In this document: piece after piece, positions 24,791-41,743 of the stretch
How the letters are laid out: each line of letters begins with the position of its first letter
How positions within the stretch are numbered: the stretch's first letter is position 1
Source of the DNA: Bacteroidia bacterium
Lineage (GTDB): Bacteria > Bacteroidota > Bacteroidia > Bacteroidales > VadinHA17
Assembly: GCA_026391215.1 (NCBI GenBank)
Contig: JAPLDX010000090.1
Span: 1 to 64,000, forward strand
DNA length: 64,000 nt
Direction: 5' to 3'
Program-made: the position numbers and the translations under genes
The notes under the pieces: model-generated
Database searches by the model: none
Told to the model about the DNA's origin: nothing
Seen by the model: the letters and a program-made list of their open reading frames with translations, nothing else

Positions 24791-24824
24791 GCAATCGGTT
24801 GCGAATTTTTATTCAACCGATTGC
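24791..24824. promoter_or_regulatory. Tandem LacI-type operators
   Basis: GCAATCGGTTGC (24791-24802) and inverted copy TCAACCGATTGC (24813-24824); central CG palindrome typical of LacI sites, in the divergent promoter region. Confidence 0.8.
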
Positions 24825-24930
24825 ATTCTTTGTAACTTTTTATTATTTTTATAGGTTATTATTTACTTGTTTACTATTTAAACCGATTAAAAACAGATGT
24901 ACAGGGGATAAATTTTATATTCCATTACAG

Positions 24931-26405: not shown

Positions 26406-26438
26406 TTAAGAAATATTGTTTCTGCGTAAAAAATTATG

Positions 26439-26478
26439 GCAATCGGTTGCGCTATTCTATTTTTATGTTATAAATTTG
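26439..26478 (+). promoter_or_regulatory. LacI-type operator plus Bacteroidota -7 promoter element of susC
   Basis: GCAATCGGTTGC at 26439-26450, identical to the 24791 site; TAAATTTG at 26471-26478. Confidence 0.8.
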
Positions 26479-26555
26479 AGTGATTGCCATGTGTTTAAAT
26501 GAAGAAACATTTAGTTAACCAAATATTTTTTATATCTACCCTTTAATCTAACTCT

Positions 26556-29666: not shown

Positions 29667-29677
29667 TAATAAATGAT

Positions 29678-31564
29678 ATGAAAAAGTTTAAGATAATCTC
29701 AATTTTAATAGTGATGATGGTTTTTATCGGCATTCGCTGCTCAGAGGATTTTCTTACTCCAAAACCATTATCTTTTTATGCACCTGAAAACACATTTGTT
29801 GATGCAAATGGGTTAAATGCTGCCCTGATCGCCTGCCTGCGCAATGCACGGCACGAAATGTATGGAGATACACCTCCGTTCATTTCTGAAGGGATATTTT
29901 CCGACATTGCCGTTGAAGGTACTACAGATAAAACCGGAGTGCATATGGATATGCCGGCTCAAATACTTCCAAATGAGAATATGGATTACTCGGACAGGAC
30001 CAAGCTGGGCAGATACTGGACTGAAGCATATAACAGGATTAAATATGCCAATGTTGTTATAAACAGAATTGACGTTGCAAAATGGAAAAGTGAAGCTGAG
30101 CGGAATAATGTTCTTGGCAAGGCATACTTTCACAGAGCCAACGTTTACTATAGGCTTGTGAACCAGTACGGAGATGTGCCGTTTATCCTGACTGAGATAA
30201 TGGAACCCAAACTTGATTTCTACACATGCACACGTGAGAGTATCCTCAGGAAAATAAAGAAAGATCTGGAATTTGCCGCACTATGGGTTTATACCGATGC
30301 GCAGGGGTGTCCGATCGGGGATATCAACAATGCTGCTGTAAATCACTTGCTTACAAAAGTAAATCTTTCGCTTGGGGAATTTGATGATGCCATTGCTTCA
30401 GCCAATGCCGTTATAAACGATGGCGTCCACTCATTGATGACCACCAGATTTGGATCTTACAAGGATGATCCCACACATGATGTTATCTGGGACCTTCACC
30501 AGGAAGAAAATAAAGCCCTCGCTGAAAATAAGGAAAGGATCTGGCTTTTTGTCTGCAGTGAGACATTAACCGAAGACGGCGCCAGTGAAAAACTTACTGT
30601 TATGAGGCAGGCTGTACCATACTGGGGAGGTGCCGGTAAAAATAAAACTCCGACTGGTCAGACAGGTACCACTGATCAGCCTTTGGGTGCAAAAGTAGGA
30701 GGTAAAGCTGTTGAGATAGACCTTGTTGCAAAATACGGAAGGGGGATTGGTCGTTTCCGCCCGTCACCTTATTCTCAGTTTGATGTATGGGATGATCCTA
30801 ATGACAAACGACACCTGTATCCAAACTGGATAACAATGGAAAACCTGGTTTATAATAACCCGGTTTTGAAATCGCTTGGTGATCCATACTATAATAAACC
30901 TCTTCAGAAATATGATGCTACGGGGGGTATTTTATGCACCGATACCATTAGGTCATGGTACAACTGGCCGCATTATAAACTATTTGTTATTGACCCGACC
31001 AACCCAATGCCCCAGGGTGGAAATGGCGACTGGTATGCCTTCCGCCTGGCTGAAACCTATTTGTTAAGGGCTGAGGCTTATTGCTGGAAAGGTGATCTTA
31101 CAAATGCTGCTGCCGATGTTAATAAGGTCAGGAACAGGGCAGGTTGTGCTTCTTATACTCCTGCCCAGATAAACATAGGTACTATCCTCGATGAACGTAA
31201 TCGTGAATTGTACTATGAAGAGCCACGTAAGACCGAACTCACCCGTATTGCATATATATATGCGATGACCGGGATAACATGCTATAATGGGAAAACCTAT
31301 AGCCTGGCTAATTTCTCGACCGACAACTTCTGGTATGACAGGATAATTGAAAAGAACAAATTCTACCGGGACCAGGTCAAGGCTCCTTTCTATAATTACA
31401 GAATAGCTGAGTGGATCGTCCTCTGGCCTGTTCCAACAGCTGCCATAAGTGCAAACAGCCTCGGACATATCAATCAGAATCTGGGTTATCCCGGAGCTGA
31501 AACCAACATTACACCAATGAAATGGGTTGATGGCGCGGGTGAAGGATCAATTGTAGCTCAGTAA
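29678..31564 (+). CDS. susD: SusD/RagB outer-membrane glycan-binding lipoprotein
   Basis: Lipoprotein signal (IRC-SEDFL), AYFHRA..Y..LV..YGDVP, FRLAETYLLRAEA, ILDERNRELYYE, QNLGY. Confidence 0.95.
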   Translation: MKKFKIISILIVMMVFIGIRCSEDFLTPKPLSFYAPENTFVDANGLNAALIACLRNARHEMYGDTPPFISEGIFSDIAVEGTTDKTGVHMDMPAQILPNENMDYSDRTKLGRYWTEAYNRIKYANVVINRIDVAKWKSEAERNNVLGKAYFHRANVYYRLVNQYGDVPFILTEIMEPKLDFYTCTRESILRKIKKDLEFAALWVYTDAQGCPIGDINNAAVNHLLTKVNLSLGEFDDAIASANAVINDGVHSLMTTRFGSYKDDPTHDVIWDLHQEENKALAENKERIWLFVCSETLTEDGASEKLTVMRQAVPYWGGAGKNKTPTGQTGTTDQPLGAKVGGKAVEIDLVAKYGRGIGRFRPSPYSQFDVWDDPNDKRHLYPNWITMENLVYNNPVLKSLGDPYYNKPLQKYDATGGILCTDTIRSWYNWPHYKLFVIDPTNPMPQGGNGDWYAFRLAETYLLRAEAYCWKGDLTNAAADVNKVRNRAGCASYTPAQINIGTILDERNRELYYEEPRKTELTRIAYIYAMTGITCYNGKTYSLANFSTDNFWYDRIIEKNKFYRDQVKAPFYNYRIAEWIVLWPVPTAAISANSLGHINQNLGYPGAETNITPMKWVDGAGEGSIVAQ

Positions 31565-31583
31565 TTTGTTAAATATGTATAAT

Positions 31584-31628
31584 AGAGAAGCCTGCTTCAT
31601 ACGGAAGAGGCTTCTCTTCTTTTCCTTT
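31584..31628 (+). terminator. Rho-independent terminator/attenuator after susD
   Basis: AGAGAAGCCT...AGGCTTCTCT stem followed by a T-rich tract. Confidence 0.65.
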
Positions 31629-31681
31629 ATGTAATTTTATATCAGTTTTTATCACATTTTTAAATAAATCATCTGACAGAT

Positions 31682-33055
31682 ATGAAAAGAAGAAAATTTA
31701 TTGCGAATACCGCAGCTGCTGCAGCTGGTACTATAATAATGCCGACGATTATCCCTTCATCAGTCATCGGTAACAATCCGCCGAGCGATAAGATCAATAT
31801 TGGCTGGATAGGCAACGGCAGACAGGGAAGAGGTGACATTATGGGAACTATGAGGTTTGATTCAGCCATGGTAGTCGCTGTTTCTGATGTGGATTCAAAC
31901 AGAATGGCTCTCGGTAAAAAAATGGTTGAAGATTTTTATGCCAAAAAAACAGGCCAGGCAGGATACGTGGATGTTAAAAGCCATGCGGATTATCATACTT
32001 TGCTGGCCGATAAAGATATTGATGCCGTTATGATCACAACACCTGATCACTGGCATTCGCAGCCTGCTCTTGAAGCAGCGCTCGCAAGCAAGGATATCTA
32101 TCTCGAAAAGCCCACTTCACTTACCATTGCTGAAGGCAGAGTGCTGAGCGATGTGGTAAGACGTCAGAAGGTTATCCTTCAGGTCGGGACTCAGCAGCGC
32201 TCAAGCACACAGTGGAGATATGCTGCCGAGCTGGTCAGAAACGGCAGGATAGGTAAACTCCATACTGTTAAAATAGGACTTCCCGGAGATCCGGCCGGAC
32301 CTGAAGCTGCCGAGATGCCGATCCCTGAAAACCTGAATTATGATATGTGGCTTGGATCAACACCCGAGGTCTATTATACTGAAATAAGGGTACATCCGCA
32401 AAAGGATTTTGATCGCCCGGGATGGCTCAGATGCGAGCAATTTGGAGCAGGGATGATAACAGGATGGGGACAGCATCATTTCGATTCAGCAGCCTGGGGT
32501 ATGGATACTGAATTAACAGGTCCAATTTCAATAGAAGCTGTAGCACAATTTCCGAAATCAGGTCTCTGGGATGTTCATGGCGATTTTATGTCAATAGCAG
32601 AATATAAAAACGGAATAACACAGCTGACAAGCGGAAACTATCCAAACGGAGTGAGGTATGAAGGTACTGATGGCTGGATTTTTGTTACACGCGGTAACTA
32701 CAGGGCAACCGACAGTGATCCTGTTTCACAGGAAAATAATACAAAAGCGCTTAATGCAAGCGATCTCAAGATCCTGTCTTCGGTGATCGGACCGAATGAA
32801 ATACATCTTTATGAAAGCGATTCACAGCAGGGCAACTGGCTTGATTGCATAAAATCAAGGAAAGAGCCCATCTCACCTGTTGAGATAGGGCACCGGGCAT
32901 GTTCAGTATGTCTTGTTACTCATATAGCAATGAAGCTTGGAAGAAAGCTCAACTGGGACCCTGATAAGGAGAAATTTGTGAATGACGATGAAGCGAACAG
33001 CATGCTTTCACGCCCTCAGAGAGCGCCTTACGGAACAAATTATGTAAAGATTTAA
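31682..33055 (+). CDS. Gfo/Idh/MocA family oxidoreductase, Tat-exported
   Basis: MKRRKF Tat motif, IGNGRQG, TPDHWH, EKP, QVGTQQRS, YDMWLG, WGQHHFD. Confidence 0.92.
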   Translation: MKRRKFIANTAAAAAGTIIMPTIIPSSVIGNNPPSDKINIGWIGNGRQGRGDIMGTMRFDSAMVVAVSDVDSNRMALGKKMVEDFYAKKTGQAGYVDVKSHADYHTLLADKDIDAVMITTPDHWHSQPALEAALASKDIYLEKPTSLTIAEGRVLSDVVRRQKVILQVGTQQRSSTQWRYAAELVRNGRIGKLHTVKIGLPGDPAGPEAAEMPIPENLNYDMWLGSTPEVYYTEIRVHPQKDFDRPGWLRCEQFGAGMITGWGQHHFDSAAWGMDTELTGPISIEAVAQFPKSGLWDVHGDFMSIAEYKNGITQLTSGNYPNGVRYEGTDGWIFVTRGNYRATDSDPVSQENNTKALNASDLKILSSVIGPNEIHLYESDSQQGNWLDCIKSRKEPISPVEIGHRACSVCLVTHIAMKLGRKLNWDPDKEKFVNDDEANSMLSRPQRAPYGTNYVKI

Positions 33056-33065
33056 TACTCCTGTC

Positions 33066-33971
33066 ATGAGAAGAATTTTGATTTATGCCTCGTTTATGCT
33101 TGCAGGCGCAGTAATGACTTTACCCGGGAAAGGAGCAAAGATAGAAGCTGTTAAAGTCGGTTCAAAGATCAATGTTACAATTGATGGCAAGTTTTTTACC
33201 AGCTACATCTTTTCGGAAGATGAGAAATATCCTTTCTTCTATCCTGTAAATGGACCTGTATCAGGAGGATCAGTTACTTCGATGAGAAATGCAGTTTATC
33301 CTCATCACACCTCGCTTTTTTTTGGATGTGACCAGGTAAACGGCGGAAATTACTGGCAGGAGGGACTGGATAGAGGCCGGATAATCTCTGTAAATGCTCA
33401 GATACTGAAACAGGGAGGCGATTCAGTCGTAATAACTGATGAATGTATCTGGAGCCGCCCGGGAGCCTTATCACCTGTAAAAGATACCCGTGAATTCATT
33501 ATAACCGCCCCATCTGCAACAGTTACTCAGATAGATGTGGAGATAACCATGGAGATGCTTATAGATGTCCATATCCGCAAGACAAACCATTCTCTTTTCA
33601 GTGCAAGAATGGCAGCCGATCTTGCAGTGACCAGCGGGGGAACTATGATAAACGCTGAAGGAGCAAAAGGCGAAAAAGAAACATTCGGGAAAGGTTCTCC
33701 CTGGATTGACTTTTACGGGAAACGGGGCAATGCAGTCGAAGGACTGGCTATAATGCAGCACCCATCCAATCCATGGTATCCGTCACCCTGGTTTACACGT
33801 GATTACGGATTCATCTCACCAACACCTATGTACTGGCCTAAGGACGATGCGGAAACTTTCATGGAAAAAGGAACACAGCTTAAGCTGAGGTATCGTGTGC
33901 TTATTCATTCCGGAACTCATACTGATGCTGATATTGCAGGTCAGTTTGAGAAGTATAAAATCAGCAATTAA
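33066..33971 (+). CDS. DUF6807 / 'PmoA-family' secreted protein
   Basis: KYPFFYPVNGP, YPHHTSLFFG, VNGGNYW, HPSNP, WFTRDYG, LRYRVLIH. Confidence 0.78.
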   Translation: MRRILIYASFMLAGAVMTLPGKGAKIEAVKVGSKINVTIDGKFFTSYIFSEDEKYPFFYPVNGPVSGGSVTSMRNAVYPHHTSLFFGCDQVNGGNYWQEGLDRGRIISVNAQILKQGGDSVVITDECIWSRPGALSPVKDTREFIITAPSATVTQIDVEITMEMLIDVHIRKTNHSLFSARMAADLAVTSGGTMINAEGAKGEKETFGKGSPWIDFYGKRGNAVEGLAIMQHPSNPWYPSPWFTRDYGFISPTPMYWPKDDAETFMEKGTQLKLRYRVLIHSGTHTDADIAGQFEKYKISN

Positions 33972-34165: not shown

Positions 34166-35521
34166 TTATTTCAAATACCTCTTTGCAAACTGGATGAAAT
34201 AAGGCCAGTTTGGTCCTGAGGTATGCCCGCCGGAATGCTGCCGGTATGCTATATCTCCATCAGTCAGCGTTGTTTCAAGAGGAGGATGCTCAGTGGTTCC
34301 CAAACCCTTTTTGCCAAGGAGTTCATAAACAGGACCGGCATATGCACCTGCCAGGAACATTCCTTTTCCATCAATCCAGGCATCTCCGTTTTCCGTGGAA
34401 CCTGAACCTATAAATACCGGACGAGGGGCACATAAAGCAACAAGTTCATGTGCGTCTAAAGGAAGATCGTTCTGTGTTAACGGATCTGCACCGTACTTAA
34501 TAAAATTACCTGCAAACCAGTGATACTCACCCGAAGCGGCAAGGTTTTCAATCTGCTCTCCGAAAATGCGACGATAAAGCTTTACTCCTCCCGCGCCTGA
34601 TGAACCTATAAATCCTATTGCGAACCTTTCATCATATGCCATTGTAACAATAGAAGCTTTACCATAGCGGGAAAGTCCTTCAATGCCAACTTTTTTCGCA
34701 TTCACATCCTTATCTGTTTCGAAGTAATCGAGAGCCATGGAAGCTCCCCATGCCCATGCTCTTAAAGCTCCCCAGTCATCAGGTTTGCGCCGTTCTCCTT
34801 TATTCACAAGTCCTATTATTCCGGCTGTAAGACCAGCTCCATTATCTGCCTGTACGCTTACCGGAATCAGAATTGCATAACCCCATCCGGCTTCCAGAAT
34901 CTGCTCCATCCACGTTGGCTCGGGTGGTCCTTGAGGGCGATTTGAAACCGGAGGCTTCCAACCGGCCGGAAAAACAAAACCGAATTCCATGATCACCGGG
35001 ACAGGACCTACAGCTCCTGCCGGAGTAGTAAGAGTGAGGTCAATGTTTACCACAATTGCCGGATATGCAGAGTTATCGACATGACCTGATAGCTTTTTAG
35101 TTACAACAGGTACGCTGCCGACACTATCCCTTGTAACATTCAGTACCTTCCAGGTCACTTCCGGTACATTATCCGGGACGCGACCGTAAAGCTCATTGTC
35201 AAACAATTCAATAAGTTCCGGGCGGCGTTTCTTCCACCATTCTTTTGCAGATTTAACACGTTTACCATTGTTCAGGATCAGCGGATCTGGCAGAGACGTA
35301 TATTGACCTGCCTTTGATTCGTCCATGTTAGCAGCATTAGGGGCAGTTGGATTTCCTGAAGGGCCGGGACGCACCGAGGTAATACCAATCTGATCCAGCA
35401 TATTCTTATAATCCTCCCGGGTGAGCTTATTTATACTATCCATGGCAGCCTTGGAAAACTGACCAGATGCAATGCATGCAAGAAGCAGGAATATTGAGAT
35501 AAATAAAAATAACTTTTTCAC
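34166..35521 (-). CDS. CE15-like glucuronoyl/4-O-methylglucuronoyl esterase
   Basis: WGALRAWAWGAS..LDY, GLSRYGK nucleophile motif (CE15 G-x-S-R-x-G-K), SGAGG, LPLDAHELVALCAPRPVF, HSGGH. Confidence 0.8.
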   Translation of the reverse strand: MKKLFLFISIFLLLACIASGQFSKAAMDSINKLTREDYKNMLDQIGITSVRPGPSGNPTAPNAANMDESKAGQYTSLPDPLILNNGKRVKSAKEWWKKRRPELIELFDNELYGRVPDNVPEVTWKVLNVTRDSVGSVPVVTKKLSGHVDNSAYPAIVVNIDLTLTTPAGAVGPVPVIMEFGFVFPAGWKPPVSNRPQGPPEPTWMEQILEAGWGYAILIPVSVQADNGAGLTAGIIGLVNKGERRKPDDWGALRAWAWGASMALDYFETDKDVNAKKVGIEGLSRYGKASIVTMAYDERFAIGFIGSSGAGGVKLYRRIFGEQIENLAASGEYHWFAGNFIKYGADPLTQNDLPLDAHELVALCAPRPVFIGSGSTENGDAWIDGKGMFLAGAYAGPVYELLGKKGLGTTEHPPLETTLTDGDIAYRQHSGGHTSGPNWPYFIQFAKRYLK

Positions 35522-35527
35522 GGAAAA

Positions 35528-37756
35528 TTATAGTAATGTCACAGTTTTCTTAAGAATCCTTGGCTCTTTCACTCCGGTTACAGCTTTTGGCTGACTGCCA
35601 CCGACAGTCAGTTCAAAAATGCCGGGATTTACTACCCTTTTATTCTGTTCATCGATAACCGAGAATGCATCAGGGGAAACTGAGAATGTGACAGTCTTGT
35701 TTTCACCGGGAAGCAGATTGATCCGCTTGAAACCTTTAAGGGCACGGATTGGCACAGGAACTGAAGAACCCAGGTTAGAGAGATAAAGCTGAACTACTTC
35801 ATCACCGGCTATTTTACCTGTATTCTTCACAGTCACAGTTACTGTTACTTCATCCCCGGATTTAATTTTTTTTGCCACCTTTAATTTGCTGTATCTGAAT
35901 GTAGTATAGCTGAGCCCAAAACCAAAGGGGTAGAGAGCTTCTCCCTTAAAATAACGATAGGTCCGGTTTTCCATCCTGTATTCGGTAAAATCAGGAAGAT
36001 CCTCCACTGATTTATAAACTGTTACAGGAAGTCGTCCGCCCGGATTATAATCTCCGAAGATCACATCAGCCAAAGCCTGACCTGCAGCCTGACCGCCGTA
36101 CCATGTCTCGATAATAACCGGGATATTATCATTTTCCCAGTTGACCGTAAGAGCACTGCCATTAAGCAGTACCAGCACAACCGGCTTGCCAAGGGCATGG
36201 ATCTCTTTAATGAGCGCCTGCTGCACATCAGGAAGATCTATCCGGGTGCGGTCGCCGCCCCTGAATCCATCGACGGTGACTTTCATTTCTTCTCCTTCGA
36301 GTCTCGGTGTTATTCCCATGCACATGATCACTATGTCAGCTTTTTTTGCAGTTTCCAGAGCTTCGGCTTTCATTTCTTCATCAGTTCTTTTCTCCGGCAA
36401 ACCTGCCACCCAGTTACAGCCCTGGGCATAAAGAACCTCAGATAATCCTTCAAGTTCTTCCCTGATCCCTCTTAAAGGCGTATATGGATCCGATGGAGTA
36501 CCGTTATAATTTCCCAGTAAAACAAATGACTGGTCAGAGTTGGGACCTATTACAGCAACTGTCCCGATATCTTTCTTTAACGGAAGCAGATTACCATGAT
36601 TTTTTAAAAGCACTATTGATTTAAGGGCAGTCTCTTTTGCAAGAGCTTTATTCTGTTCGCTGTCATTGACACTGTATGGTATCTGGGCATACTTTACCAT
36701 TTCAGGAGGATCGAACATGCCCAGTTTGAATCTTGCAGTGAAAAGTCTTTTAACAGAAACATCAACTTCCTGTTCTGTAATAAGTCCCTTATTCAGTGAT
36801 TCCTTCAGGCTCCTGTAAGCCGATCCGCATTCAAGATCCGTACCGGCGCGTACACTAATGGCTGATGCTTCTTCCGATGTAGCAACTACTTTATGAAACC
36901 TGTAGATATCATCAATAGCCCCGCAGTCAGAAACTATATATCCGTCAAATCCCCATTCATTGCGCAAAATACTTTTAATAAGCATGTCTCCGCCGCAGCA
37001 GGTCTCTCCATTGTACCTGTTATAGGCACACATCACAGAATAGGCTTTTCCTTCCTTTATACCCATCTCAAACTGCGGCAGATATGTCTCTCTCAGATCT
37101 CTTTCATCTGTCTTAGCATCAAATGAGTGTCTTTCAGGCTCCGGACCACTGTGAACTGCATAATGTTTGAGTGTTGCAATGGTTTTAAAGTATTTAGGAT
37201 CATCGCCCTGGAGTCCTTTTACAAATTGTACAGCAATTTTCCCTGTCAGGAACGGATCTTCACCATAGGTTTCCTGCCCTCTTCCCCAGCGTGGATCCCT
37301 GAAAAGATTAATATTAGGAGACCAGAACGTCAGACCCTGGTAAATCCTTCTGGAATTATTCCTTACAAATTCATGATGCTTGGCTCGGGCTTCATCTGAA
37401 ATAGCAGTGGCTACTCTGAATATCAGGTCCTCATCCCATGTAGCGCCCAGTCCAATTGCCTGGGGAAACACTGTTGCCACTCCTGCTCTTGCAACACCAT
37501 GGAGGCATTCATTCCACCAGTTATAAGCCGGGATGCCCAGTCTTTCTATTGCAGGCGCCGAGTTCATCATCTGGCCGATCTTTTCATCAACCGTCAATCT
37601 GCTAACCAGATCATTTACACGTACTTCTATCGACAAATCTGGATTCTGAAAAGGAAGCTCCCAGGTTTGCTGAGCTTTAGCAATCTGGCTGATACAAACC
37701 AGTATAAGCAGAGCTATAAGAACTCTCTTAAGGATCAATTTAATGTTTATCTTCAT
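35528..37756 (-). CDS. GH3 beta-xylosidase/beta-glucosidase
   Basis: WWNECLHGVA, WSPNINLFRDPRWGRGQETYGEDP, KHYAVH, YIVSDCGAI nucleophile, EGEE, FN3-like C-terminus. Confidence 0.93.
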   Translation of the reverse strand: MKINIKLILKRVLIALLILVCISQIAKAQQTWELPFQNPDLSIEVRVNDLVSRLTVDEKIGQMMNSAPAIERLGIPAYNWWNECLHGVARAGVATVFPQAIGLGATWDEDLIFRVATAISDEARAKHHEFVRNNSRRIYQGLTFWSPNINLFRDPRWGRGQETYGEDPFLTGKIAVQFVKGLQGDDPKYFKTIATLKHYAVHSGPEPERHSFDAKTDERDLRETYLPQFEMGIKEGKAYSVMCAYNRYNGETCCGGDMLIKSILRNEWGFDGYIVSDCGAIDDIYRFHKVVATSEEASAISVRAGTDLECGSAYRSLKESLNKGLITEQEVDVSVKRLFTARFKLGMFDPPEMVKYAQIPYSVNDSEQNKALAKETALKSIVLLKNHGNLLPLKKDIGTVAVIGPNSDQSFVLLGNYNGTPSDPYTPLRGIREELEGLSEVLYAQGCNWVAGLPEKRTDEEMKAEALETAKKADIVIMCMGITPRLEGEEMKVTVDGFRGGDRTRIDLPDVQQALIKEIHALGKPVVLVLLNGSALTVNWENDNIPVIIETWYGGQAAGQALADVIFGDYNPGGRLPVTVYKSVEDLPDFTEYRMENRTYRYFKGEALYPFGFGLSYTTFRYSKLKVAKKIKSGDEVTVTVTVKNTGKIAGDEVVQLYLSNLGSSVPVPIRALKGFKRINLLPGENKTVTFSVSPDAFSVIDEQNKRVVNPGIFELTVGGSQPKAVTGVKEPRILKKTVTLL

Positions 37757-37815
37757 GGCGATATTAATGAGGTTTTCTTATTTTTATACCGTTAAGCCGT
37801 TGAACCTTTGTGCCG

Positions 37816-38517
37816 TTATGCCTTGCTTCTCCTATAAATACAGTCTTTCATATCGCAAAGGCTGCAGGTATAAGGGTGTCTTTTTACATTCTTGCCTATA
37901 CCGATAATTCCGCTGATTGATTTCATCGGATACATCAGTGCTGAAGACGATAATTTTATTTCGCAAAAGTTATCCGTCAACAGCTGAAACAGTTTATGCT
38001 GTTCAGCAACAAGCCAGCCGCAGTATCCCGGGCTGAACCTGTTAGTGATCCCTTTACCCAGGGCGTTTATTTCTCTTTCAAGCTGGTCCTGCATAAGATC
38101 TGCAGCTGCCTCAACAGCCTCACTACCAACAACATCATAGATATAACCTCTCAGCAGATCCCCTTCCTTCATCGATTTCTTACTCCTGGCTCCGATCTCC
38201 TCTCCTGCCGTACATAAAAACAAAGCTGCTGAATCCGATTTCTTAATCTGGCTGTAAATGATCTTTTTTATTTGGAAGACCAGGCCGTTTATAGTCACAG
38301 TTTTTTCGGCTTCGTCAAATGCAATATCATCAAAAAACCTGTATTCTGCTTTCATTGTACAGATCTCCTCTGCTTCTTTCAGAACCTCTGAAACAAGTTC
38401 AGAAATAGTCTCCTGTGACTCTCCTTCCTTATAACCCATGACACTTTCAACCTGGGAAACAGCGAGTTTCAGATCCTTAAAGTCAAATTGAAAAGTTGAT
38501 CCGGTCATTAATTCCAT
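37816..38517 (-). CDS. Stand-alone B12-dependent methionine-synthase-type reactivation (SAM-binding) domain protein
   Basis: FLCTAG, GSEAVEAAAD, TNRFSPGYCGW, MYPMKSISGIIG; C-terminal CxxCxxxxC. Confidence 0.85.
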   Translation of the reverse strand: MELMTGSTFQFDFKDLKLAVSQVESVMGYKEGESQETISELVSEVLKEAEEICTMKAEYRFFDDIAFDEAEKTVTINGLVFQIKKIIYSQIKKSDSAALFLCTAGEEIGARSKKSMKEGDLLRGYIYDVVGSEAVEAAADLMQDQLEREINALGKGITNRFSPGYCGWLVAEQHKLFQLLTDNFCEIKLSSSALMYPMKSISGIIGIGKNVKRHPYTCSLCDMKDCIYRRSKA

Positions 38518-38523
38518 TATTCA

Positions 38524-38598
38524 TCACCCCCCATCCCCCCTGAAGGGGGGCTAAAATGTACTGCTAATTAAGCCCCATTTAGGGGGTTTGGGGGTCAG
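38524..38598. repeat. REP-like double-hairpin element overlapping the metVF stop codon
   Basis: CACCCCCCATCCCCCCTGAAGGGGGGCT, a spacer, then AGCCCCATTTAGGGGGTTTGGGGGTC; close to the 4646 and 45671 copies. Confidence 0.75.
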
Positions 38599-40030
38599 TT
38601 AATCCTGATTCTTTTACTATCCTTTCCACAACATCTTCCCAGCCCAGAGTCATAAGATGTATTCCATTTACTCCTTTCTTCCCTTTGAGTGATTCTATGA
38701 TTTCCAGCACTATCTGTATTCCTTCCTCTGCTGCTCCGTCTCCTGCCTTCTCCATACGCTTCAGAACATTCTCCGGTAAAAAGACTCCCGGAACTTTGTC
38801 ATGAAGGTATCTGGCCACATTATAACTTTTCAAAGGTGCGATGCCAACCAATATGAAGACCTTTTTAAGCACATCTCTTTTATCCAGCTCTTCCATCCAA
38901 TTGCTCAGCCTTGAAGGTTCAAAAATGATATTTGTCTGGAAGAACTGTGCGCCTGCATTGACTTTTTTATGATCTCTTATAGCTTGCAATTCAGGATCGG
39001 ATGCAAATGGCGATGTTGCTGCGCCAAGAAAATACATGGGAGGATATTTTATATTTCTTCCATCAAGATAAATACCTTCATCTCTCATTTTCCTCAGTAT
39101 CCATAGCATCTGGACAGAATCTATATCAAGAAGATTCATCTCTGCAGTTGGTGCCGGGCCAACTTTCGGGCTGTCGCCTGTTACGCACAGAATATTTTTC
39201 ACTCCGAACTGGCTGGAACCTATTACTGTGGACTGAAGCCCTATGCGGGTGGTATCGCGGGCAGCTATTTGCAGTACAGGTTCAACATGCAGGTCATTTG
39301 CCACCCTGCAGCATGCCAGGCTCGACATTTTAGGATTTGCTGAAGCAGCGTCAGTAAAATTAATAGCAGTTACATAAGGCCTTACAAGCTCAATATCCCT
39401 GATAAGTTTTCCTGAAGCTGCACCCAGCGGAGGTATTACCTCCGTGGCAACTATAAATTCACCGTTCCTTAATTTTGTTTCCAGATTTGAAGCAGGTTCC
39501 TGATAAGAGGCAGGATGAAAATCAGAATCCCCGGCCCACCATTCCGGCTGCCGGATAGTTTTGAAAACAGAATCCCAGGTCCTGTCGCTCTTTTCCTTGT
39601 CTCTTGATAAGTATCCACTCAGAAATGAAACAGTACCAACCTTTCTCACCTGGCGTATCACTTCTCCCCAGGTTTCAGTTCCGACCTTGTTATAGTCGAG
39701 AGGGGGTAATACCTCAAGAAGGGTTTCCTTGCGTCCTGTTTTCAGCGCTCTTTTATAAATGGCGTACCAGATGCAATCACGTGTCTCATCTACGTAACAT
39801 TTTTTTTCAGGTGTTACTCCTCCGCAGGGTCCGTTTCTCAATCCTTTAGGACACTCCATCGGACAGATCATGGCTGTCTCCTGCAAGAGGCAATTTCCGC
39901 ACATTCTGCAGCCAAAAACAGGTCCTTTGATAATTAGTTCTGTTTTGGCAAGGAGTCTTCGGCCGAATTTTTCCTTCTTAAAGGGATAAAAGGCAGGCTG
40001 CCATCTGCGGGAGGGTTTGATACCTGACAT
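38579..40030 (-). CDS. metF: Methylenetetrahydrofolate reductase, MetV-like Cys-rich domain fused N-terminally to MetF
   Basis: N-terminal CRMCGNC..ICPMECPKGLRNGPCGG...C...CIW (MetV-type); C-terminal EVIPP, INFTD, ARD, NILCVTGD, KKVNAGAQFFQT, GIHLM (MetF). Confidence 0.88.
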   Translation of the reverse strand: MSGIKPSRRWQPAFYPFKKEKFGRRLLAKTELIIKGPVFGCRMCGNCLLQETAMICPMECPKGLRNGPCGGVTPEKKCYVDETRDCIWYAIYKRALKTGRKETLLEVLPPLDYNKVGTETWGEVIRQVRKVGTVSFLSGYLSRDKEKSDRTWDSVFKTIRQPEWWAGDSDFHPASYQEPASNLETKLRNGEFIVATEVIPPLGAASGKLIRDIELVRPYVTAINFTDAASANPKMSSLACCRVANDLHVEPVLQIAARDTTRIGLQSTVIGSSQFGVKNILCVTGDSPKVGPAPTAEMNLLDIDSVQMLWILRKMRDEGIYLDGRNIKYPPMYFLGAATSPFASDPELQAIRDHKKVNAGAQFFQTNIIFEPSRLSNWMEELDKRDVLKKVFILVGIAPLKSYNVARYLHDKVPGVFLPENVLKRMEKAGDGAAEEGIQIVLEIIESLKGKKGVNGIHLMTLGWEDVVERIVKESGLTDPQTP

Positions 40031-40869
40031 TATTGCCGGCTCTGGAAATATTCAACAAATCTTACTGCATAGTCATCCCTCCCAAGGACCAGGTCTGTAG
40101 CACGTACCATAGCAGTTATTTTTTCGGGATTGGCGATGGGACATGTCAGCCCGTTATAGATTGACAGAGCCATATATGATGCATTCAATGTCTCCCTGTC
40201 GGGTAATCCGAAAGAAATATTGCTGGCGCCCTGGGTAATATTATGGCCCAGCTTCTGATGCACAAGCCTCATTGTTTCCAGGGTTACCATGCAGGCTTTC
40301 TGATCAGCGCTTACTGCCATAGCCAGAGGGTCAATAATAACATCCTCTGCTTTAATCCCGGCTTTTATAGCTCGTTCAATTATTTTTTCCGCAACTGCTA
40401 CTCTTTTTACCGGGTCATTCGTGATTCCTTCCTCGTCCATGCATAATCCTATAATTGCAGCACCATACTCCTTTGCTACCGGCAGAAGAGCTTTCATTGA
40501 AGCCTCTTCACCGTTTACTGAATTTATAAGACATTTGCCCTCTGCTGCTTTTAGAGCAGCCTCTATGGCTTTTGGATTCGGTGAATCCAGACACAGGGGA
40601 ACTTCAAATTTATCCTGAAGCCTTTTTACGGTTTCCGCAAGCAGCTTCACATCATCCACACCGGGAAATCCGACATTCACATCAAGCACATCAGCACCTG
40701 CTTTAATCTGACATTCTGCAAGTTCGAGAACATATTCAAAATTTCCTTCCAGGAGGGTGGAAACCAGCTTTTTCCTCCTGGTTGGATTTATGGATTCACC
40801 TATGATAATGACAGGGCCGCTGGTATCAATTATAACTTCCTTGTACCTCCCCTTAAGAATTGTTTTCAT
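40030..40869 (-). CDS. Pterin-binding methyltetrahydrofolate:corrinoid methyltransferase (AcsE/MT2-like)
   Basis: IIGESINPT, GADVLDVNVG, PLCLDS, LINSVNGE, IIDPL, GASNISFGLP.R. Confidence 0.9.
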   Translation of the reverse strand: MKTILKGRYKEVIIDTSGPVIIIGESINPTRRKKLVSTLLEGNFEYVLELAECQIKAGADVLDVNVGFPGVDDVKLLAETVKRLQDKFEVPLCLDSPNPKAIEAALKAAEGKCLINSVNGEEASMKALLPVAKEYGAAIIGLCMDEEGITNDPVKRVAVAEKIIERAIKAGIKAEDVIIDPLAMAVSADQKACMVTLETMRLVHQKLGHNITQGASNISFGLPDRETLNASYMALSIYNGLTCPIANPEKITAMVRATDLVLGRDDYAVRFVEYFQSRQ

Positions 40870-40885
40870 TTCGCGTATTTTCCAG

Positions 40886-41554
40886 CTAAGATACTATTTG
40901 GTTCAAATAATTTACTGCTCCCTGCGGGTCGGGAGAATAATAATCTGCTCCTATTTTTTCACAATATTCCTTAGTGACAGGTGCACCACCAACGAGAATT
41001 TTAATGCCGGATTTTTTTTCACGGATAGCCGTGACGGTTTTCTTCATGTTTTCCATGGTTGTGGTAAGCAAGGCTGAGAGACCTATTACTGCTCCGGGAT
41101 TTTCATCAATGGCTTTAATGAACTTATCTGTCCCTACATCCACTCCAAGGTCTATCACTTCCCATCCTCCTCCCTCGATCATCATAGCCACAAGGTTTTT
41201 ACCTATATCGTGCAGGTCACCTGCTACGGTACCGATAATAAATTTCCCTTTCCTCTTGGCTTCTCCTGACTGGAAAAATGGTTTAAGATGTTTCATAGCG
41301 CTGCTCATAGATTTAGCTGCCATTAACATCTGGGGCACATAAATTTCCTTCCTGCTGAATTTGTCCCCGACAATTGCCATTGCAGGAATCAACGCCTTTT
41401 CAAGAATATCACCAGGCTTCATTCCATCGTCGATGGCCTTCCTTGTCAGTTCATCGGCTCCATCCTGGCCTTTCATATCTGGTGGATAAGGAGATGCTTT
41501 ATCTATTTTACCAAATTCAACACAACTGGAAATCTTACTTAAAATATCATCCAT
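40886..41554 (-). CDS. Corrinoid (cobalamin-binding) methyl-carrier protein
   Basis: Cap domain (LIPAMAIVGDKF..EIYVPQML) and DLHDIGKNLV (DxHxxG), DLGVDV, LSALLTTT, VGGAPV. Confidence 0.93.
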   Translation of the reverse strand: MDDILSKISSCVEFGKIDKASPYPPDMKGQDGADELTRKAIDDGMKPGDILEKALIPAMAIVGDKFSRKEIYVPQMLMAAKSMSSAMKHLKPFFQSGEAKRKGKFIIGTVAGDLHDIGKNLVAMMIEGGGWEVIDLGVDVGTDKFIKAIDENPGAVIGLSALLTTTMENMKKTVTAIREKKSGIKILVGGAPVTKEYCEKIGADYYSPDPQGAVNYLNQIVS

Positions 41555-41637
41555 AGATTATCTGTATTTGAAAAAGACAAAATTATGATAATAGATCAGT
41601 GTTTACTTTGATTCTGTATCAAATTTAGTAATTAATT

Positions 41638-41656
41638 TAATTTTGCAACCGATTGC
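41638..41656. promoter_or_regulatory. LacI-type operator overlapping the -7 box in the divergent corrinoid-operon/TolB-like promoter region
   Basis: GCAACCGATTGC (41645-41656) is the exact reverse complement of the 24791/26439 site. TAATTTTG occurs at 41638-41645 (+) and at 41578-41585 (-). Confidence 0.78.
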
Positions 41657-41743
41657 AATTATTTTTTTAAGATTTTTATACTGTAAGTTGATTATCTTTA
41701 TTACAATAGCATATATTTTACAAAAGGGTAAATTCTGTTATAT

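What the first reader, a model, noticed from the sequence alone, without database searches (positions are those of the whole stretch)
34166..41656. Cobalamin methyl-transfer module co-operonic with xylan enzymes: candidate anaerobic sugar O-demethylase system
Seen: six co-oriented minus-strand genes encoding a corrinoid protein, a pterin-binding methyltransferase, a MetV-MetF fusion, a SAM reactivation domain, a GH3 xylosidase and a CE15 esterase. Gaps are 0-61 bp with no evident terminator. The promoter region carries the same LacI operator as the xylA/xylB/SusCD locus, which also holds a GH115 remnant. Established: corrinoid protein + MT2 + activator + MetVF is the architecture of acetogen O-demethylases that move methyl groups onto THF, and GH115 and CE15 act on 4-O-methylglucuronoyl groups of xylan. 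Inference: the module strips the methyl ether from 4-O-methylglucuronate (or a related methylated sugar) and feeds C1 metabolism. I know of no characterised anaerobic route for this in Bacteroidota PULs. Caveat: no substrate-specific MT1 is in the window, and the same four domains could be a split methionine synthase lacking its homocysteine-binding part.
Basis: partly seen in the sequence, partly recalled or inferred. Interest (0 to 1): 0.85.

Follow-up and report, generated by a model that had tools for sequence, protein, structure and literature searches.

The report
Vitamin-B12 methyl-transfer genes in xylan locus
A sediment bacterium keeps a vitamin-B12-dependent methyl-transfer gene set under the same sugar switch as its xylose and xylan genes, which suggests that anaerobes can strip and use the methyl groups that plants put on xylan sugars.

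Summary
Six minus-strand genes are present: a corrinoid protein, a methyl-THF:corrinoid methyltransferase, a MetV-MetF fusion, a MetH-type reactivation domain, GH3 and CE15. They sit behind a LacI operator shared with the xylAB/SusCD locus, and the GH115 remnant is real.

The genome has its own SAM-riboswitch-controlled metH/metF, so this is a second system. The four-gene core is conserved in 32 of 36 genomes of the genus. In 43 of 50 long loci it lies beside xylose/xylan genes. GH3 and CE15 are lineage-specific additions.

The missing MT1 is probably a URO-D-family protein encoded elsewhere (C38:162573-163607). In other Bacteroidales its orthologues sit beside GH115, CE15, UxaC, the same LacI and operator, xylBA-MetVF, or the corrinoid protein. 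A complex model supports binding to the corrinoid protein.

Best reading, about 0.55: this is the shared core of a corrinoid O-demethylase for xylan-derived methylated sugars, most likely 4-O-methylglucuronate, feeding methyl-THF.

Weak points:
- This genome lacks GH115, GH67 and GH10.
- Its MT1 candidates lack the operator.
- Aliphatic ether cleavage by such enzymes is unproven.
- In other families the corrinoid protein pairs with a small homocysteine methyltransferase.

Nine literature searches found no precedent.

The parts
41644..41657 (.). LacI-type palindromic operator TGCAACCGATTGCA, about 90 bp upstream of the corrinoid-protein gene
   Evidence: Read. It is one of 2 perfect copies in the genome. 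An operator stands 60-140 bp upstream of the orthologous gene in 20 of 68 loci.
40886..41554 (-). Corrinoid (cobalamin) protein with a cap domain and a Rossmann domain carrying DxHxxG (DLHDIG)
   Evidence: Pfam B12-binding_2 and B12-binding. Sequence read. Closest solved chain 1y80, E 1.7e-47.
40030..40869 (-). Methyl-THF:corrinoid methyltransferase (MT2, MeTr/AcsE-like)
   Evidence: Pterin_bind 103 bits. NF005719 271 bits against a cut-off of 259. 4o0q, 2yck and 1q7m at E 1e-36 to 1e-38.
38579..40030 (-). MetV-MetF fusion, a methylene-THF reductase with an N-terminal Cys-rich MetV part
   Evidence: DUF5981 87.7 bits plus MTHFR 104.8 bits. Sequence read. Orthologues of 52-65% identity end acsB-acsD-acsC-RACo-acsE clusters of Anaerolineae.
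37816..38517 (-). Free-standing MetH-type reactivation (SAM-binding) domain protein
   Evidence: Met_synt_B12 36.6 bits. 1j6r, E 1.5e-4. R[FY]SPGY aligns with RPAPGY of this genome's MetH.
35528..37756 (-). GH3 glycosidase, probably a beta-xylosidase, with a signal peptide
   Evidence: Pfam. The top solved matches are beta-xylosidases. N-terminus read by eye.
34166..35521 (-). CE15 glucuronoyl esterase with a lipoprotein-like signal
   Evidence: GCE_fung 97.6 bits. 6hsw, E 2.1e-115. N-terminus read by eye.
25146..33971 (+). Divergent operon DUF6807 - SusC - SusD - TAT-signal GFO oxidoreductase - DUF6807
   Evidence: Pfam. A 2-mismatch operator stands at 26438 before SusC. The operon flanks the module in most relatives.
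24970..25107 (+). C-terminal remnant (46 aa) of a GH115 alpha-glucuronidase gene
   Evidence: tblastn with GH115 of L019: 61% identity, E 1.4e-12. Full-length GH115 occupies this position in relatives.
24790..24825 (.). Two operator copies (TGCAATCGGTTGCG, TTCAACCGATTGCA) in the LacI/DUF6807 divergent promoter
20803..24723 (-). LacI-family regulator - xylulokinase-like FGGY kinase - xylose isomerase operon
   Evidence: Pfam. XylA reaches TIGR02630 at 654 bits against 533. XylB has TIGR01312 as best match at 322 bits, below its cut-off of 380.

Best explanation
Window 37816-41554 encodes the substrate-independent core of a corrinoid-dependent O-demethylase. Its parts are a cobalamin carrier protein, a methyltransferase that passes the methyl from methyl-cobalamin to tetrahydrofolate, a MetV-MetF reductase, and a reactivation protein. 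The reductase interconverts methyl-THF and methylene-THF, so the methyl enters the C1 pool, canonical MetH, or oxidation towards formate through FTHFS. The reactivation protein is MetH-type and SAM-dependent, and rescues oxidised Co(II).

The core is repressed and induced by the LacI regulator of the adjacent xylose/glucuronoxylan locus. In this genome it is transcribed together with a secreted GH3 beta-xylosidase and a CE15 glucuronoyl esterase.

The substrate-specific methyltransferase (MT1) is not in the window. The best candidate is the URO-D-family protein at C38:162573-163607 ('UroD344'). Two further URO-D paralogues beside MFS sugar transporters (C130, C133) probably serve other methylated sugars.

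The most likely methyl donor is 4-O-methylglucuronate from glucuronoxylan, giving glucuronate for UxaC. I put this at about 0.4 on its own, and at about 0.55 for 'a methylated carbohydrate'.

Shown: the domains, the separate housekeeping metH/metF, the regulon, the synteny and the co-occurrence. Inferred: the direction of methyl flow, the identity of MT1 and the substrate.
For: (1) A second system.
- The genome has metY-metX-hom-metH-metF behind a SAM-I riboswitch on C105.
- The in-frame TAA in that metH is read as TAC in all 4 of 4 runs laid.
- 4 of 5 genus genomes checked have a 1216-1247-aa MetH frame and no other S-methyl_trans match.
- No riboswitch lies in the window.

(2) Regulon.
- The operator occurs 5 times in the genome. 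Four copies lie upstream of sugar operons, including this one.
- It is conserved upstream of the corrinoid gene in 20 of 68 loci, not de-duplicated.

(3) Synteny.
- The MT2 gene was found in 32 of 36 genus genomes.
- The four-gene core is intact in 18 of 20 genus loci fetched. L028 shows no MetVF match and L020 ends at a contig end.
- Of 50 unique loci of >=15 kb, 43 carry xylose-locus genes: 21 xylA/B, 7 GH115, 6 CE15, 11 GH3.
- In L021 and L028 the core runs straight into xylB-xylA.

(4) MT1 candidates.
- The genome has four URO-D/MtaA-like genes and no MtaB or MttB.
- In 201 genomes of the order, all 8 with the module have a URO-D-like gene, against 21 of the other 193. All 19 with UroD344 have the corrinoid protein, against 15 of 182.
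- Of 18 UroD344 orthologue loci: GH115 in 4, CE15 in 1, the LacI orthologue in 3, and GFO/DUF6807 in 4. In 4 more, one or more of the corrinoid, homocysteine-methyltransferase and reactivation genes lie beside UroD344, and UxaC ends 20 bp upstream in 1.
- The operator stands by LacI-UroD344 in L131, L133 and L135.
- L118 reads operator-LacI-UroD344-XylB-XylA-MetVF.

(5) Complex model of the corrinoid protein with UroD344.
- Score 0.80; best of 3 controls 0.00. The mark was reached by 58 of 80 solved complexes and 2 of 110 mismatched pairs.
- Runs agree in >=84% of contacts; partner pLDDT >=91.
- I used my own alignments, so these counts hold only roughly. A pass may reflect likeness to solved corrinoid complexes.

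(6) C1 link. In other families the core is fused to FTHFS and a formate channel behind a GntR/sugar-binding-type regulator. This genome has FTHFS.
Against: - The own genome (98.9% complete) has no GH115, GH67 or GH10 at E<=0.01. It would depend on other organisms for free 4-O-methylglucuronate.
- None of its four URO-D genes has an operator-like site, even at 3 mismatches in the upstream stretches checked. UroD344 lies on another contig, and where one contig holds both in relatives it lies about 80-140 kb from the module.
- Two genus genomes (G007, G014; 97-99% complete) have the module but no UroD344 match.
- CE15 and GH3 accompany the core in only 7 and 14 of 70 unique loci.
- UroD344 is about equally like HemE and MtaA in sequence and in fold. 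No solved O-demethylase MT1 was matched.
- From recall: known corrinoid O-demethylases act on aryl methyl ethers. Cleavage of an aliphatic sugar ether has no characterised precedent.
- No uronate gene neighbours the module itself in any locus fetched. UxaC was seen only beside UroD344, in one genome.
- No expression data could be found.
Confidence: 0.55

Rival explanations
1. The system is an aryl methyl ether O-demethylase. The URO-D-type MT1 and this core remove methyl groups from methoxylated aromatics that travel with xylan, such as ferulate or lignin-carbohydrate fragments freed by CE15. This is the classical chemistry of acetogen and Desulfitobacterium O-demethylases. Co-regulation with xylose genes would reflect only the shared source material.
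For: - The architecture (URO-D-type MT1, corrinoid protein, pterin-type MT2) matches the aryl O-demethylases (recalled).
- The closest solved MT2 is the D. hafniense O-demethylase component 4o0q, and the corrinoid protein matches 4jgi and 1y80.
- CE15 acts at lignin-carbohydrate esters (established CAZy knowledge).
- The chemistry has precedent.
Against: - UroD344 orthologues sit directly in sugar operons: LacI-UroD344-XylB-XylA-MetVF in L118, UxaC-UroD344 in L139, and beside GH115 and an MFS_2 symporter.
- The paralogues UroD424 and UroD417 are co-operonic with Sugar_tr transporters.
- No aromatic-catabolic gene was seen in any neighbourhood annotated.
- UroD344 matched no solved aryl O-demethylase MT1.
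Confidence: 0.17
2. The chemistry is the same but the sugar differs. The donor would be another O-methyl sugar whose product is xylose or a neutral sugar, for example 2-O-methylxylose, rather than 4-O-methylglucuronate.
For: - The tightest links of the core are to xylB-xylA (21 of 50 long loci; contiguous in L021, L028 and L118), not to uronate genes.
- This genome lacks alpha-glucuronidases.
- In L117 and L029 the core is followed by a Sugar_tr transporter and a GH2-like gene. In this genome their orthologues follow the URO-D paralogue UroD417.
Against: - GH115 and CE15 both act on (methyl)glucuronoyl xylan. They recur at the module locus (8 and 7 of 70 unique loci) and beside UroD344 in other families.
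- UxaC directly precedes UroD344 in G154.
- From recall: the 4-O-methyl of glucuronate is the main methyl ether of xylan.
Confidence: 0.15
3. The module is a split or auxiliary methionine synthase. Methyl-THF made by MetVF is passed through MT2 and the corrinoid protein to homocysteine, using a homocysteine-binding protein encoded elsewhere. It would be a second MetH used during growth on xylan.
For: - The domain set equals MetH minus its homocysteine domain, plus an MTHFR.
- The reactivation protein is MetH-type with RxxxGY.
- In other families the corrinoid and reactivation genes lie beside a ~300-aa S-methyl_trans gene (L039, L105, L136, L137, G114 C21, G154 C6).
- 27 of the 29 genomes with that small gene are among the 34 with the corrinoid protein.
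- G221 has no full-length MetH.
Against: - In this genus the only S-methyl_trans domain is that of the intact, riboswitch-controlled metH.
- The module carries a sugar-regulator operator and no riboswitch.
- Only 2 of 70 unique module loci have a homocysteine methyltransferase nearby, while 43 of 50 long loci have xylose/xylan genes.
- A duplicate MetH gives no reason for linkage with xylBA, GH115 or CE15.
Confidence: 0.1
4. There is no functional link. The C1 module is merely parked next to the xylose locus, the operator match serves the divergent PD40 gene, and the GH3/CE15 genes have their own promoter.
For: - Promoter-like hexamers exist inside the cluster, though not above chance: 18 against 14.5 +/- 3.9.
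- GH3 and CE15 are absent from most relatives' loci.
- The 59-61-bp gaps could hold promoters.
Against: - The operator position is conserved 60-140 bp upstream of the corrinoid gene across many species.
- In L010, L058, L063 and L073 the operator precedes a SusC-like gene that lies upstream of the module on the same strand. In L010 a SusD-like gene follows that SusC.
- The same regulator and operator control UroD344 in three other loci and in L118.
- The core is fused into xylBA operons in several genomes.
Confidence: 0.04

Closest known systems
Corrinoid-dependent O-demethylases of acetogens and Desulfitobacterium (MT1 - corrinoid protein - MT2 - activating enzyme; Odm/Mtv systems; architecture recalled)
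   Same: - The corrinoid protein has a cap and a DxHxxG Rossmann domain.
- A pterin-type MT2 transfers the methyl to THF. The closest solved MT2 is the D. hafniense component 4o0q, and the corrinoid protein matches 1y80 and 4jgi.
- The candidate MT1 is of the URO-D superfamily.
- A MetVF-type reductase follows downstream.
   Different: - MT1 is unlinked and very divergent; it matched no solved MT1.
- Reactivation is by a MetH-type SAM domain, not an ATP-dependent RACo enzyme. None was seen in the window; RACo appears only in the Anaerolineae clusters.
- MetV and MetF are fused.
- The host is a fermentative Bacteroidales organism, and the genes sit in a SusCD/LacI sugar locus.
- The inferred substrate is an aliphatic sugar ether.
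MtgBCD of Ruegeria pomeroyi (PMC12478193; abstract and start of introduction read)
   Same: A core corrinoid protein plus a bidirectional THF methyltransferase is shared between a catabolic demethylation and methionine synthesis. Substrate-specific methyltransferases plug into it.
   Different: - The donor there is glycine betaine, through an MttB-type MT1, in aerobic marine Alphaproteobacteria.
- Here the MT1 candidates are of the URO-D type.
- The context is plant-glycan loci in anaerobes.
- This genus keeps a separate complete MetH.
Split methionine synthase of Thermotoga maritima (TM0268 + TM0269; biology recalled, only the 1j6r match is)
   Same: The activation domain is a free-standing ~215-235-aa protein that serves a separately encoded cobalamin domain.
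   Different: - The match is weak (E 1.5e-4).
- The proteins here carry four extra conserved cysteines.
- They are not next to a homocysteine-binding domain in this genus.
Oxidative (P450) demethylation of 6-O-methyl-D-galactose in marine Bacteroidetes porphyran loci (recalled; not retrieved)
   Same: A dedicated demethylase is embedded in a polysaccharide-utilisation locus so that a methylated sugar can enter central metabolism.
   Different: That route needs O2 and releases formaldehyde. The route proposed here is anaerobic, cobalamin-dependent and conserves the methyl as methyl-THF.
MetVF-type methylene-THF reductase of the Wood-Ljungdahl pathway
   Same: It has a MetV Cys-rich part plus MTHFR. 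Orthologues of 52-65% identity close acsB-acsD-acsC-RACo-acsE clusters in Anaerolineae MAGs.
   Different: Here the two parts are fused in one 483-aa chain. The organism shows no ACS/CODH genes in the loci examined.

Membership tests
Corrinoid-dependent O-demethylase system (MT1/CP/MT2/activator) | Corrinoid protein with B12-binding_2 cap and a B12-binding Rossmann domain carrying DxHxxG | tested here: met
   Pfam 66.8 and 93.6 bits. DLHDIG read. These residues are invariant in 13 orthologues.
Corrinoid-dependent O-demethylase system (MT1/CP/MT2/activator) | Pterin-binding MT2 (methylcorrinoid:THF methyltransferase) | tested here: met
   Pterin_bind 103 bits. NF005719 271 against 259. 4o0q and 2yck at E 1.2e-37.
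Corrinoid-dependent O-demethylase system (MT1/CP/MT2/activator) | Substrate-specific MT1 encoded with the system | tested here: not met
   There is no MT1 in the window or in 20 genus loci. Four URO-D-like genes lie elsewhere. An MT1-like gene is adjacent to the module or corrinoid protein only in other genomes. The complex model supports binding: 0.80 against a best control of 0.00; the mark was reached by 58 of 80 solved and 2 of 110 mismatched pairs; >=84% contact agreement; pLDDT >=91.
Corrinoid-dependent O-demethylase system (MT1/CP/MT2/activator) | ATP-dependent RACo-type activating enzyme | tested here: not met
   No RACo domains appeared in any window ORF scanned. A MetH-type activation domain stands in its place. 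I did not search the whole genome for RACo.
Corrinoid-dependent O-demethylase system (MT1/CP/MT2/activator) | Methyl transfer from an O-methyl substrate to THF | not testable with these tools
   This needs an anaerobic enzyme assay.
Cobalamin-dependent methionine synthase (MetH, split form) | Homocysteine-binding S-methyl_trans domain belonging to the system | tested here: not met
   The only PF02574 match in the genome is in the canonical metH on C105. No small homologue was found in G000 or G161. 4 of 5 genus genomes have only MetH.
Cobalamin-dependent methionine synthase (MetH, split form) | Pterin, cobalamin and activation domains (RxxxGY) | tested here: met
   The name and role of the motif are recalled.
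Cobalamin-dependent methionine synthase (MetH, split form) | Methionine/SAM-responsive control or met-gene neighbourhood | tested here: not met
   There is no riboswitch in the window. The SAM-I riboswitch stands before the C105 met cluster. A LacI operator stands here instead.
CE15 glucuronoyl esterase | CE15 catalytic domain | tested here: met
   GCE_fung 97.6 against 27. 6hsw at E 2.1e-115 and OtCE15A at E 3e-57. I did not inspect the catalytic triad.
GH3 beta-xylosidase | GH3 N-terminal, C-terminal and Fn3-like domains; xylosidase specificity | tested here: inconclusive
   The domains are present. The best solved relatives are beta-xylosidases, with beta-glucosidases close behind. Specificity cannot be read from sequence.
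MetVF-type methylene-THF reductase | MetV (DUF5981, Cys-rich) plus an MTHFR barrel | tested here: met
   87.7 and 104.8 bits. Cysteine clusters read. Orthologues lie in acs clusters.
URO-D superfamily corrinoid methyltransferase (MtaA/CmuA/O-demethylase MT1), for the candidate UroD344 | URO-D fold, and closer to the methyltransferases than to HemE | tested here: inconclusive
   URO-D 105 bits. MtaA-type NCBIfam models are the best matches but fall below their cut-offs. By Foldseek, HemE and MtaA 4ay7 are alike (TMq 0.75-0.79). H240, D242 and S319 are invariant.

The most novel reading that the evidence does not exclude
Anaerobic Bacteroidales carry an unrecognised family of URO-D-type, cobalamin-dependent methyltransferases that cleave aliphatic sugar methyl ethers. 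One clade would act on the 4-O-methylglucuronate of xylan. A second clade, linked to MFS sugar transporters, would act on other O-methyl sugars or cyclitols.

The plant-derived methyl would then go one of two ways. In this genus it goes to THF and on to the C1 pool or formate. In most other families it goes straight onto homocysteine through a ~300-aa S-methyltransferase, so that methionine is made from plant methyl groups without methyl-THF.
Probability: 0.45. Interest if true: 0.9.

Novelty: new variant of a known kind. Interest (0 to 1): 0.8.

Why it matters
Most glucuronate side chains of hardwood and dicot xylan are 4-O-methylated, and other cell-wall sugars carry methyl ethers too. How anaerobes deal with these methyl groups is not described in the literature I could search. 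The only route I recall is aerobic: the P450 route for 6-O-methylgalactose.

A cobalamin-dependent route would have several consequences:
- It would explain how fermenters in sediments, peat, digesters and perhaps guts use 4-O-methylglucuronate.
- It would add a plant-polymer source of C1 units (methyl-THF, formate, methionine) to anoxic carbon budgets.
- It would tie glycan use to vitamin B12 supply.
- It would give function to thousands of genes now labelled 'uroporphyrinogen decarboxylase' in organisms that make no haem.
- It would extend corrinoid methyltransferase chemistry from aryl ethers to aliphatic ethers.

The candidate genes are now named, so the question can be tested directly with four or five recombinant proteins.

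Tried and rejected
- MtaB (methanol) and MttB-superfamily MT1s were not found in the own genome at E<=0.01. Methanol or quaternary-amine donors are therefore unlikely.
- I searched for operator-like sites next to the four URO-D genes and the second corrinoid gene. None was found at <=3 mismatches, except one weak 3-mismatch site near the paralogous corrinoid gene.
- The idea that the module compensates for a broken metH is rejected. The in-frame TAA (L009:6324-6326) is read as TAC in all four runs laid.
- My guess that the 283-aa neighbour of UxaC is KduI was wrong. It is an SDR. The 484-aa gene is 6-phosphogluconate dehydrogenase.
- The sequence search of solved structures with UroD424 gave no match. 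The Foldseek search with the UroD344 model did not separate HemE from MtaA.
- Expression: no RNA holder was listed for the stretch, so co-transcription and induction could not be examined.
- Literature: nine searches returned no paper on cobalamin- or corrinoid-dependent demethylation of 4-O-methylglucuronate, 6-O-methylgalactose, pinitol or other methyl sugars, or on such genes in polysaccharide utilisation loci. Only listings were seen, except PMC12478193 (abstract and start of introduction) and PMC10418091 (abstract and two passages). The second paper has no occurrence of 'Bacteroid' or 'sugar'. The cluster tables of PMC10418091 could list Bacteroidota clusters that I could not see. Subscription journals are not covered.
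- I did not look for the corrinoid protein or MT2 elsewhere in the genome that holds L118, or for RACo, FolD and uronate genes other than UxaC in the own genome.
I corrected the field name and sent the same report again.

Full report
**1. What is there**

ORF listing and Pfam scans confirm six co-oriented minus-strand genes:
- a corrinoid protein, 40886-41554, with B12-binding_2 + B12-binding and DLHDIG;
- a pterin-binding methyltransferase, 40030-40869, which also passes NCBIfam NF005719 'methyltetrahydrofolate:corrinoid/iron-sulfur protein methyltransferase', 271 against 259 bits;
- a 483-aa fusion of MetV (DUF5981) and MTHFR, 38579-40030;
- a 233-aa MetH-type activation domain, 37816-38517, with Met_synt_B12 at 36.6 bits against a cut-off of 25;
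- a GH3, 35528-37756;
- a CE15, 34166-35521.

The gaps are 16, -1, 61, 59 and 6 bp. Terminator-like sites are at chance level and none falls in a gap.

The closest solved relatives are these:
- for MT2, the D. hafniense O-demethylase component 4o0q, MeTr 2yck and T. maritima MetH, all near E 1e-37;
- for the corrinoid protein, Moorella 1y80;
- for the activation protein, T. maritima 1j6r;
- for CE15, 6hsw at E 2e-115;
- for GH3, beta-xylosidases.

By eye, GH3, CE15, the GFO oxidoreductase (RRKF, TAT-like) and the DUF6807 proteins have signal peptides, and the four core proteins do not.

**2. The regulatory claim**

The palindrome TGCAAYCGRTTGCA occurs at <=1 mismatch five times in the 3.39-Mb genome:
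- at 41644, about 90 bp upstream of the corrinoid gene;
- twice in the divergent LacI/DUF6807 promoter (24790, 24812);
- at C18:4270, upstream of an MFS_2 symporter-GH3 operon;
- once inside dnaE.

A 2-mismatch copy stands before SusC at 26438. By my own arithmetic, assuming uniform base frequencies, about 0.05 perfect copies are expected. Two are seen, both upstream of sugar operons.

XylA passes TIGR02630. The window holds no riboswitch.

**3. The GH115 remnant**

A full-length GH115 of 1047 aa lies between LacI and GFO in a relative's locus, L019. Its last 46 residues match window 24970-25107 at 61% identity, E 1.4e-12. The own genome has lost the gene. Whole-genome six-frame searches find no GH115, GH67 or GH10. 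UxaC is present.

**4. Not the housekeeping methionine synthase**

Contig C105 carries metY, metX, hom, metH and a canonical metF behind a SAM-I riboswitch. The assembly shows an in-frame TAA at the start of the MetH pterin domain. All four metagenome runs laid on it read TAC there, at depths 13/13, 11.7/11.7, 8.5/8.5 and 4.0/4.0. MetH is therefore intact in the population.

Four of five other genus genomes have one 1216-1247-aa MetH frame and no other S-methyl_trans match. The MetH frame of G018 is only 353 aa, and only G029 has two extra S-methyl_trans genes.

**5. Conservation and neighbourhood of the core**

- The MT2 gene was found in 32 of 36 genomes of the genus. It was found in 1 of 24 other families in the first draw, and in 8 of 201 genomes of an order-wide sample.
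- In 20 genus loci the order corrinoid protein-MT2-MetVF-activation protein is intact in 18. L028 shows no MetVF match and L020 stops at a contig end. One flank is PD40-acyltransferase-DAGK-HAD. The other is DUF6807-GFO-(SusD-SusC / DUF6807 / LacI / xylB-xylA). In L021 and L028 the core runs directly into xylB-xylA.
- A scan of named genome contigs with MetVF gave 80 loci from uncultured Bacteroidales and Anaerolineae MAGs of fens, peat, lake sediment and digesters.
- After removing identical copies there are 70 Bacteroidales-type module loci. Of the 50 that are >=15 kb, 43 carry at least one gene of the xylose/xylan set: 21 xylA/B, 7 GH115, 6 CE15, 11 GH3. Five carry FTHFS and one carries a homocysteine methyltransferase.
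- GH3 and CE15 are thus accessories. The core plus the xylose/glucuronoxylan locus is the conserved unit.
- The operator lies 60-140 bp upstream of the corrinoid gene in 20 of 68 loci (not de-duplicated). In four more it precedes a SusC-like gene that lies upstream of the core on the same strand.

**6. C1 context elsewhere**

- In other families the core reads: GntR/Peripla_BP_3 regulator-corrinoid protein-MT2-MetVF-FTHFS-formate channel (L040, L041, L059, L100, L113). This fits methyl oxidation to formate, or the reverse.
- In Anaerolineae the 52-65% identical MetVF closes acsB-acsD-acsC-RACo-acsE clusters. The fusion is therefore a C1-pathway reductase, probably exchanged between phyla.
- The own genome has FTHFS on C53 and no formate-channel match.

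**7. The missing MT1**

The genome has no MtaB or MttB. It has four URO-D-family genes that are closer to MtaA/CmuA models than to HemE, but below their cut-offs:
- C119:5423-6436;
- C38:162573-163607 ('UroD344'), between gcvP and an Oxidoreduct_C gene;
- C130:29417-30691 ('UroD424'), in GFO-Sugar_tr-UroD424-AP_endonuc_2, beside DUF2961 and a heparinase II/III-like gene;
- C133:32900-34153 ('UroD417'), followed by Sugar_tr, DUF5107/TPR and a GH2-like gene.

Order-wide co-occurrence in 201 genomes:

| Gene | Genomes with it |
|---|---|
| Corrinoid protein (>=57% identity) | 34 |
| UroD344 | 19 |
| UroD424-like | 24 |
| Small homocysteine methyltransferase | 29 |
| Module (MT2 orthologue) | 8 |

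- All 19 UroD344 genomes are among the 34 with the corrinoid protein.
- All 8 module genomes have a URO-D-like gene, against 21 of the other 193.
- 27 of the 29 genomes with the small homocysteine methyltransferase are among the 34.
- These genomes are relatives of one another, so the counts overstate independence.

Coordinates place URO-D-like genes next to the corrinoid gene in G101, G127, G148, G154, G212 and G229, and within about 1-1.2 kb of it in G040, G214 and G221.

**8. What UroD344 keeps company with**

Eighteen orthologue loci were fetched, 17 of them from other families:
- GH115 in L131, L133, L135 and L142;
- CE15 in L131;
- the LacI orthologue (56-61% identity) in L131, L133 and L135, each with the same operator at or near the LacI start, 0-79 bp upstream;
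- an MFS_2 symporter in L135 and L142;
- GFO/DUF6807/Oxidoreduct_C in L129, L139, L140 and L141;
- corrinoid protein, small homocysteine methyltransferase or activation protein in L132, L136, L137 and L144.

In L139, UxaC ends 20 bp before UroD344 in a long co-directional cluster. L118 reads operator-LacI-UroD344-XylB-XylA-MetVF, with gaps of 13-40 bp. L039 and L105 read UroD344 | homocysteine methyltransferase-corrinoid protein-activation protein-...-MT2-MetVF.

Within the genus, UroD344 is present in 33 of 36 genomes and the module in 32 of 36:
- 30 genomes have both.
- G007 and G014 have the module only.
- G002, G003 and G016 (all below 90% complete) have UroD344 only.
- G012 (97% complete) has neither.

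A second bridge links the paralogues to the core. In L117 and L029 the core is followed by a Sugar_tr gene and a GH2-like gene. Their orthologues (69-71% and 60% identity) follow UroD417 in the own genome.

**9. Models**

The UroD344 model is confident (pLDDT 91.3) and has the URO-D barrel. HemE and MtaA (4ay7; TMq 0.79, rmsd 3.2) match about equally well.

The complex model of the corrinoid protein with UroD344 'supports binding; it does not show it':
- The score is 0.80 and the best of 3 controls is 0.00.
- The mark was reached by 58 of 80 solved complexes and 2 of 110 mismatched pairs.
- The runs agree in >=84% of contacts, and the partner's pLDDT is >=91.
- I used my own alignments, so the counts hold only roughly.
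- The interface joins the DxHxxG/GGAP face of the carrier (residues 116-120, 191-194) to the barrel mouth (160-170, 210-216, 244-246, 288-289), which includes invariant G210, F211, R288 and D289.
- Corrinoid protein-methyltransferase complexes have been solved, so the pass may be family likeness.

The activation proteins keep R[FY]SPGY opposite the RPAPGY of MetH. They also add four conserved cysteines. The role of the motif is recalled, not tested.

**10. Reading**

The window holds the acceptor half of a modular corrinoid methyl-transfer system. The methyl passes from methyl-Co(III) on the carrier to THF through MT2, and then through MetVF into C1 metabolism. A SAM-dependent protein repairs the cofactor.

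The donor half is supplied in trans by URO-D-type methyltransferases. Three lines point to UroD344 as a 4-O-methylglucuronate:corrinoid methyltransferase:
- the conserved LacI control;
- the placement in a locus that ancestrally had GH115, CE15, GH3, SusCD and xylAB;
- the company UroD344 keeps in other families (GH115, CE15, UxaC, xylBA-MetVF, the same operator).

In most other Bacteroidales the acceptor appears to be homocysteine, through a ~300-aa S-methyltransferase, rather than THF.

**11. What weakens it**

- This organism cannot release 4-O-methylglucuronate itself.
- Its MT1 candidates are outside the detectable regulon.
- Two module-bearing relatives lack UroD344.
- The core itself never neighbours uronate genes.
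- Methoxylated aromatics are the chemically precedented donors, and they co-occur with xylan.
- There are no expression or activity data.

I therefore give 0.55 to 'methylated-carbohydrate O-demethylase core', with about 0.4 of that for 4-O-methylglucuronate. I give 0.17 to aromatic donors and 0.10 to an auxiliary methionine synthase.

**12. Novelty**

Corrinoid O-demethylases and shared corrinoid cores are known; MtgBCD (PMC12478193, abstract) is an example of a shared core. The new features are these:
- the carbohydrate-locus setting in Bacteroidales;
- the URO-D clades, which databases name 'uroporphyrinogen decarboxylase';
- the MetH-type repair protein;
- the MetV-MetF fusion;
- the implied aliphatic ether cleavage.

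Nine full-text searches found no description of it.

Noticed in passing
G000 contig C105, L009:6324-6326: The assembly has an in-frame TAA inside metH, replacing a Tyr at the start of the pterin domain. Contigs of all four runs laid read TAC there. This is probably an assembly or consensus error, or a rare variant.
   Followed up: yes
G000 C130:12049-12708 (L008:10026-10709): A second corrinoid protein, 76% identical to the window's, stands alone. It lies next to a 422-aa ORF with no Pfam match and a sigma/anti-sigma-SusC-SusD-GH88 locus.
   Followed up: partly
G000 C130:28518-33919 and C133:32900-41768: Two URO-D paralogues (424 and 417 aa, 59% identical to each other) are co-operonic with Sugar_tr MFS transporters. 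The first is in GFO-Sugar_tr-UroD-AP_endonuc_2. The second is in UroD-Sugar_tr-DUF5107/TPR-GH2-like. They are candidate demethylases for other methylated sugars or cyclitols such as pinitol; the cyclitol idea is my speculation.
   Followed up: partly
G154 C6:75452-78926; G114 C21:51682-53942; L136, L137, L039, L105: In other Bacteroidales families there are operons of URO-D-like gene, corrinoid protein, ~300-aa homocysteine S-methyltransferase and MetH-type activation protein, without a pterin methyltransferase. This looks like a methyl-donor:homocysteine route to methionine. The small methyltransferase is in 29 of 201 order genomes.
   Followed up: partly
window 37816-38517 and orthologues: The free-standing activation proteins share four conserved cysteines (PGYCGW plus C-x2-C-x4/5-C at the C-terminus) that the MetH activation domain lacks. 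This may be a metal or Fe-S site.
   Followed up: no
L087-L126 (Anaerolineae/Chloroflexota MAGs): MetV-MetF fusions 52-65% identical to the window's sit at the end of acsB-acsD-acsC-RACo-acsE Wood-Ljungdahl clusters. This suggests exchange of the fusion gene between Chloroflexota and Bacteroidales of the same habitats.
   Followed up: partly
window 25146-33971; L129, L139-L141; G000 C38:161167-162561: A TAT-signal GFO/IDH/MocA oxidoreductase, DUF6807 (PF14100) proteins and an Oxidoreduct_C protein travel both with the corrinoid core and with UroD344 orthologues. I could assign no role.
   Followed up: no
window 49193-55249: A minus-strand cluster of GH116, a xylose-isomerase-like TIM barrel (AP_endonuc_2), a GFO oxidoreductase and DUF2961. 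From recall, it resembles oxidative 3-keto-glycoside cleavage clusters.
   Followed up: no
window 12779-17326: A pectin methylesterase (12779-13771), a tRNA gene (13895-13967) and a 972-aa protein with a type IX secretion sorting domain in a low-GC stretch (GC 0.34-0.35 at 14-18 kb).
   Followed up: no
L014 (G027:C5), positions 2-2991: The GH115 match is split into two overlapping pieces (query residues 119-474 and 433-1039). It may be frameshifted, which would be a second case of GH115 decay at this locus.
   Followed up: no
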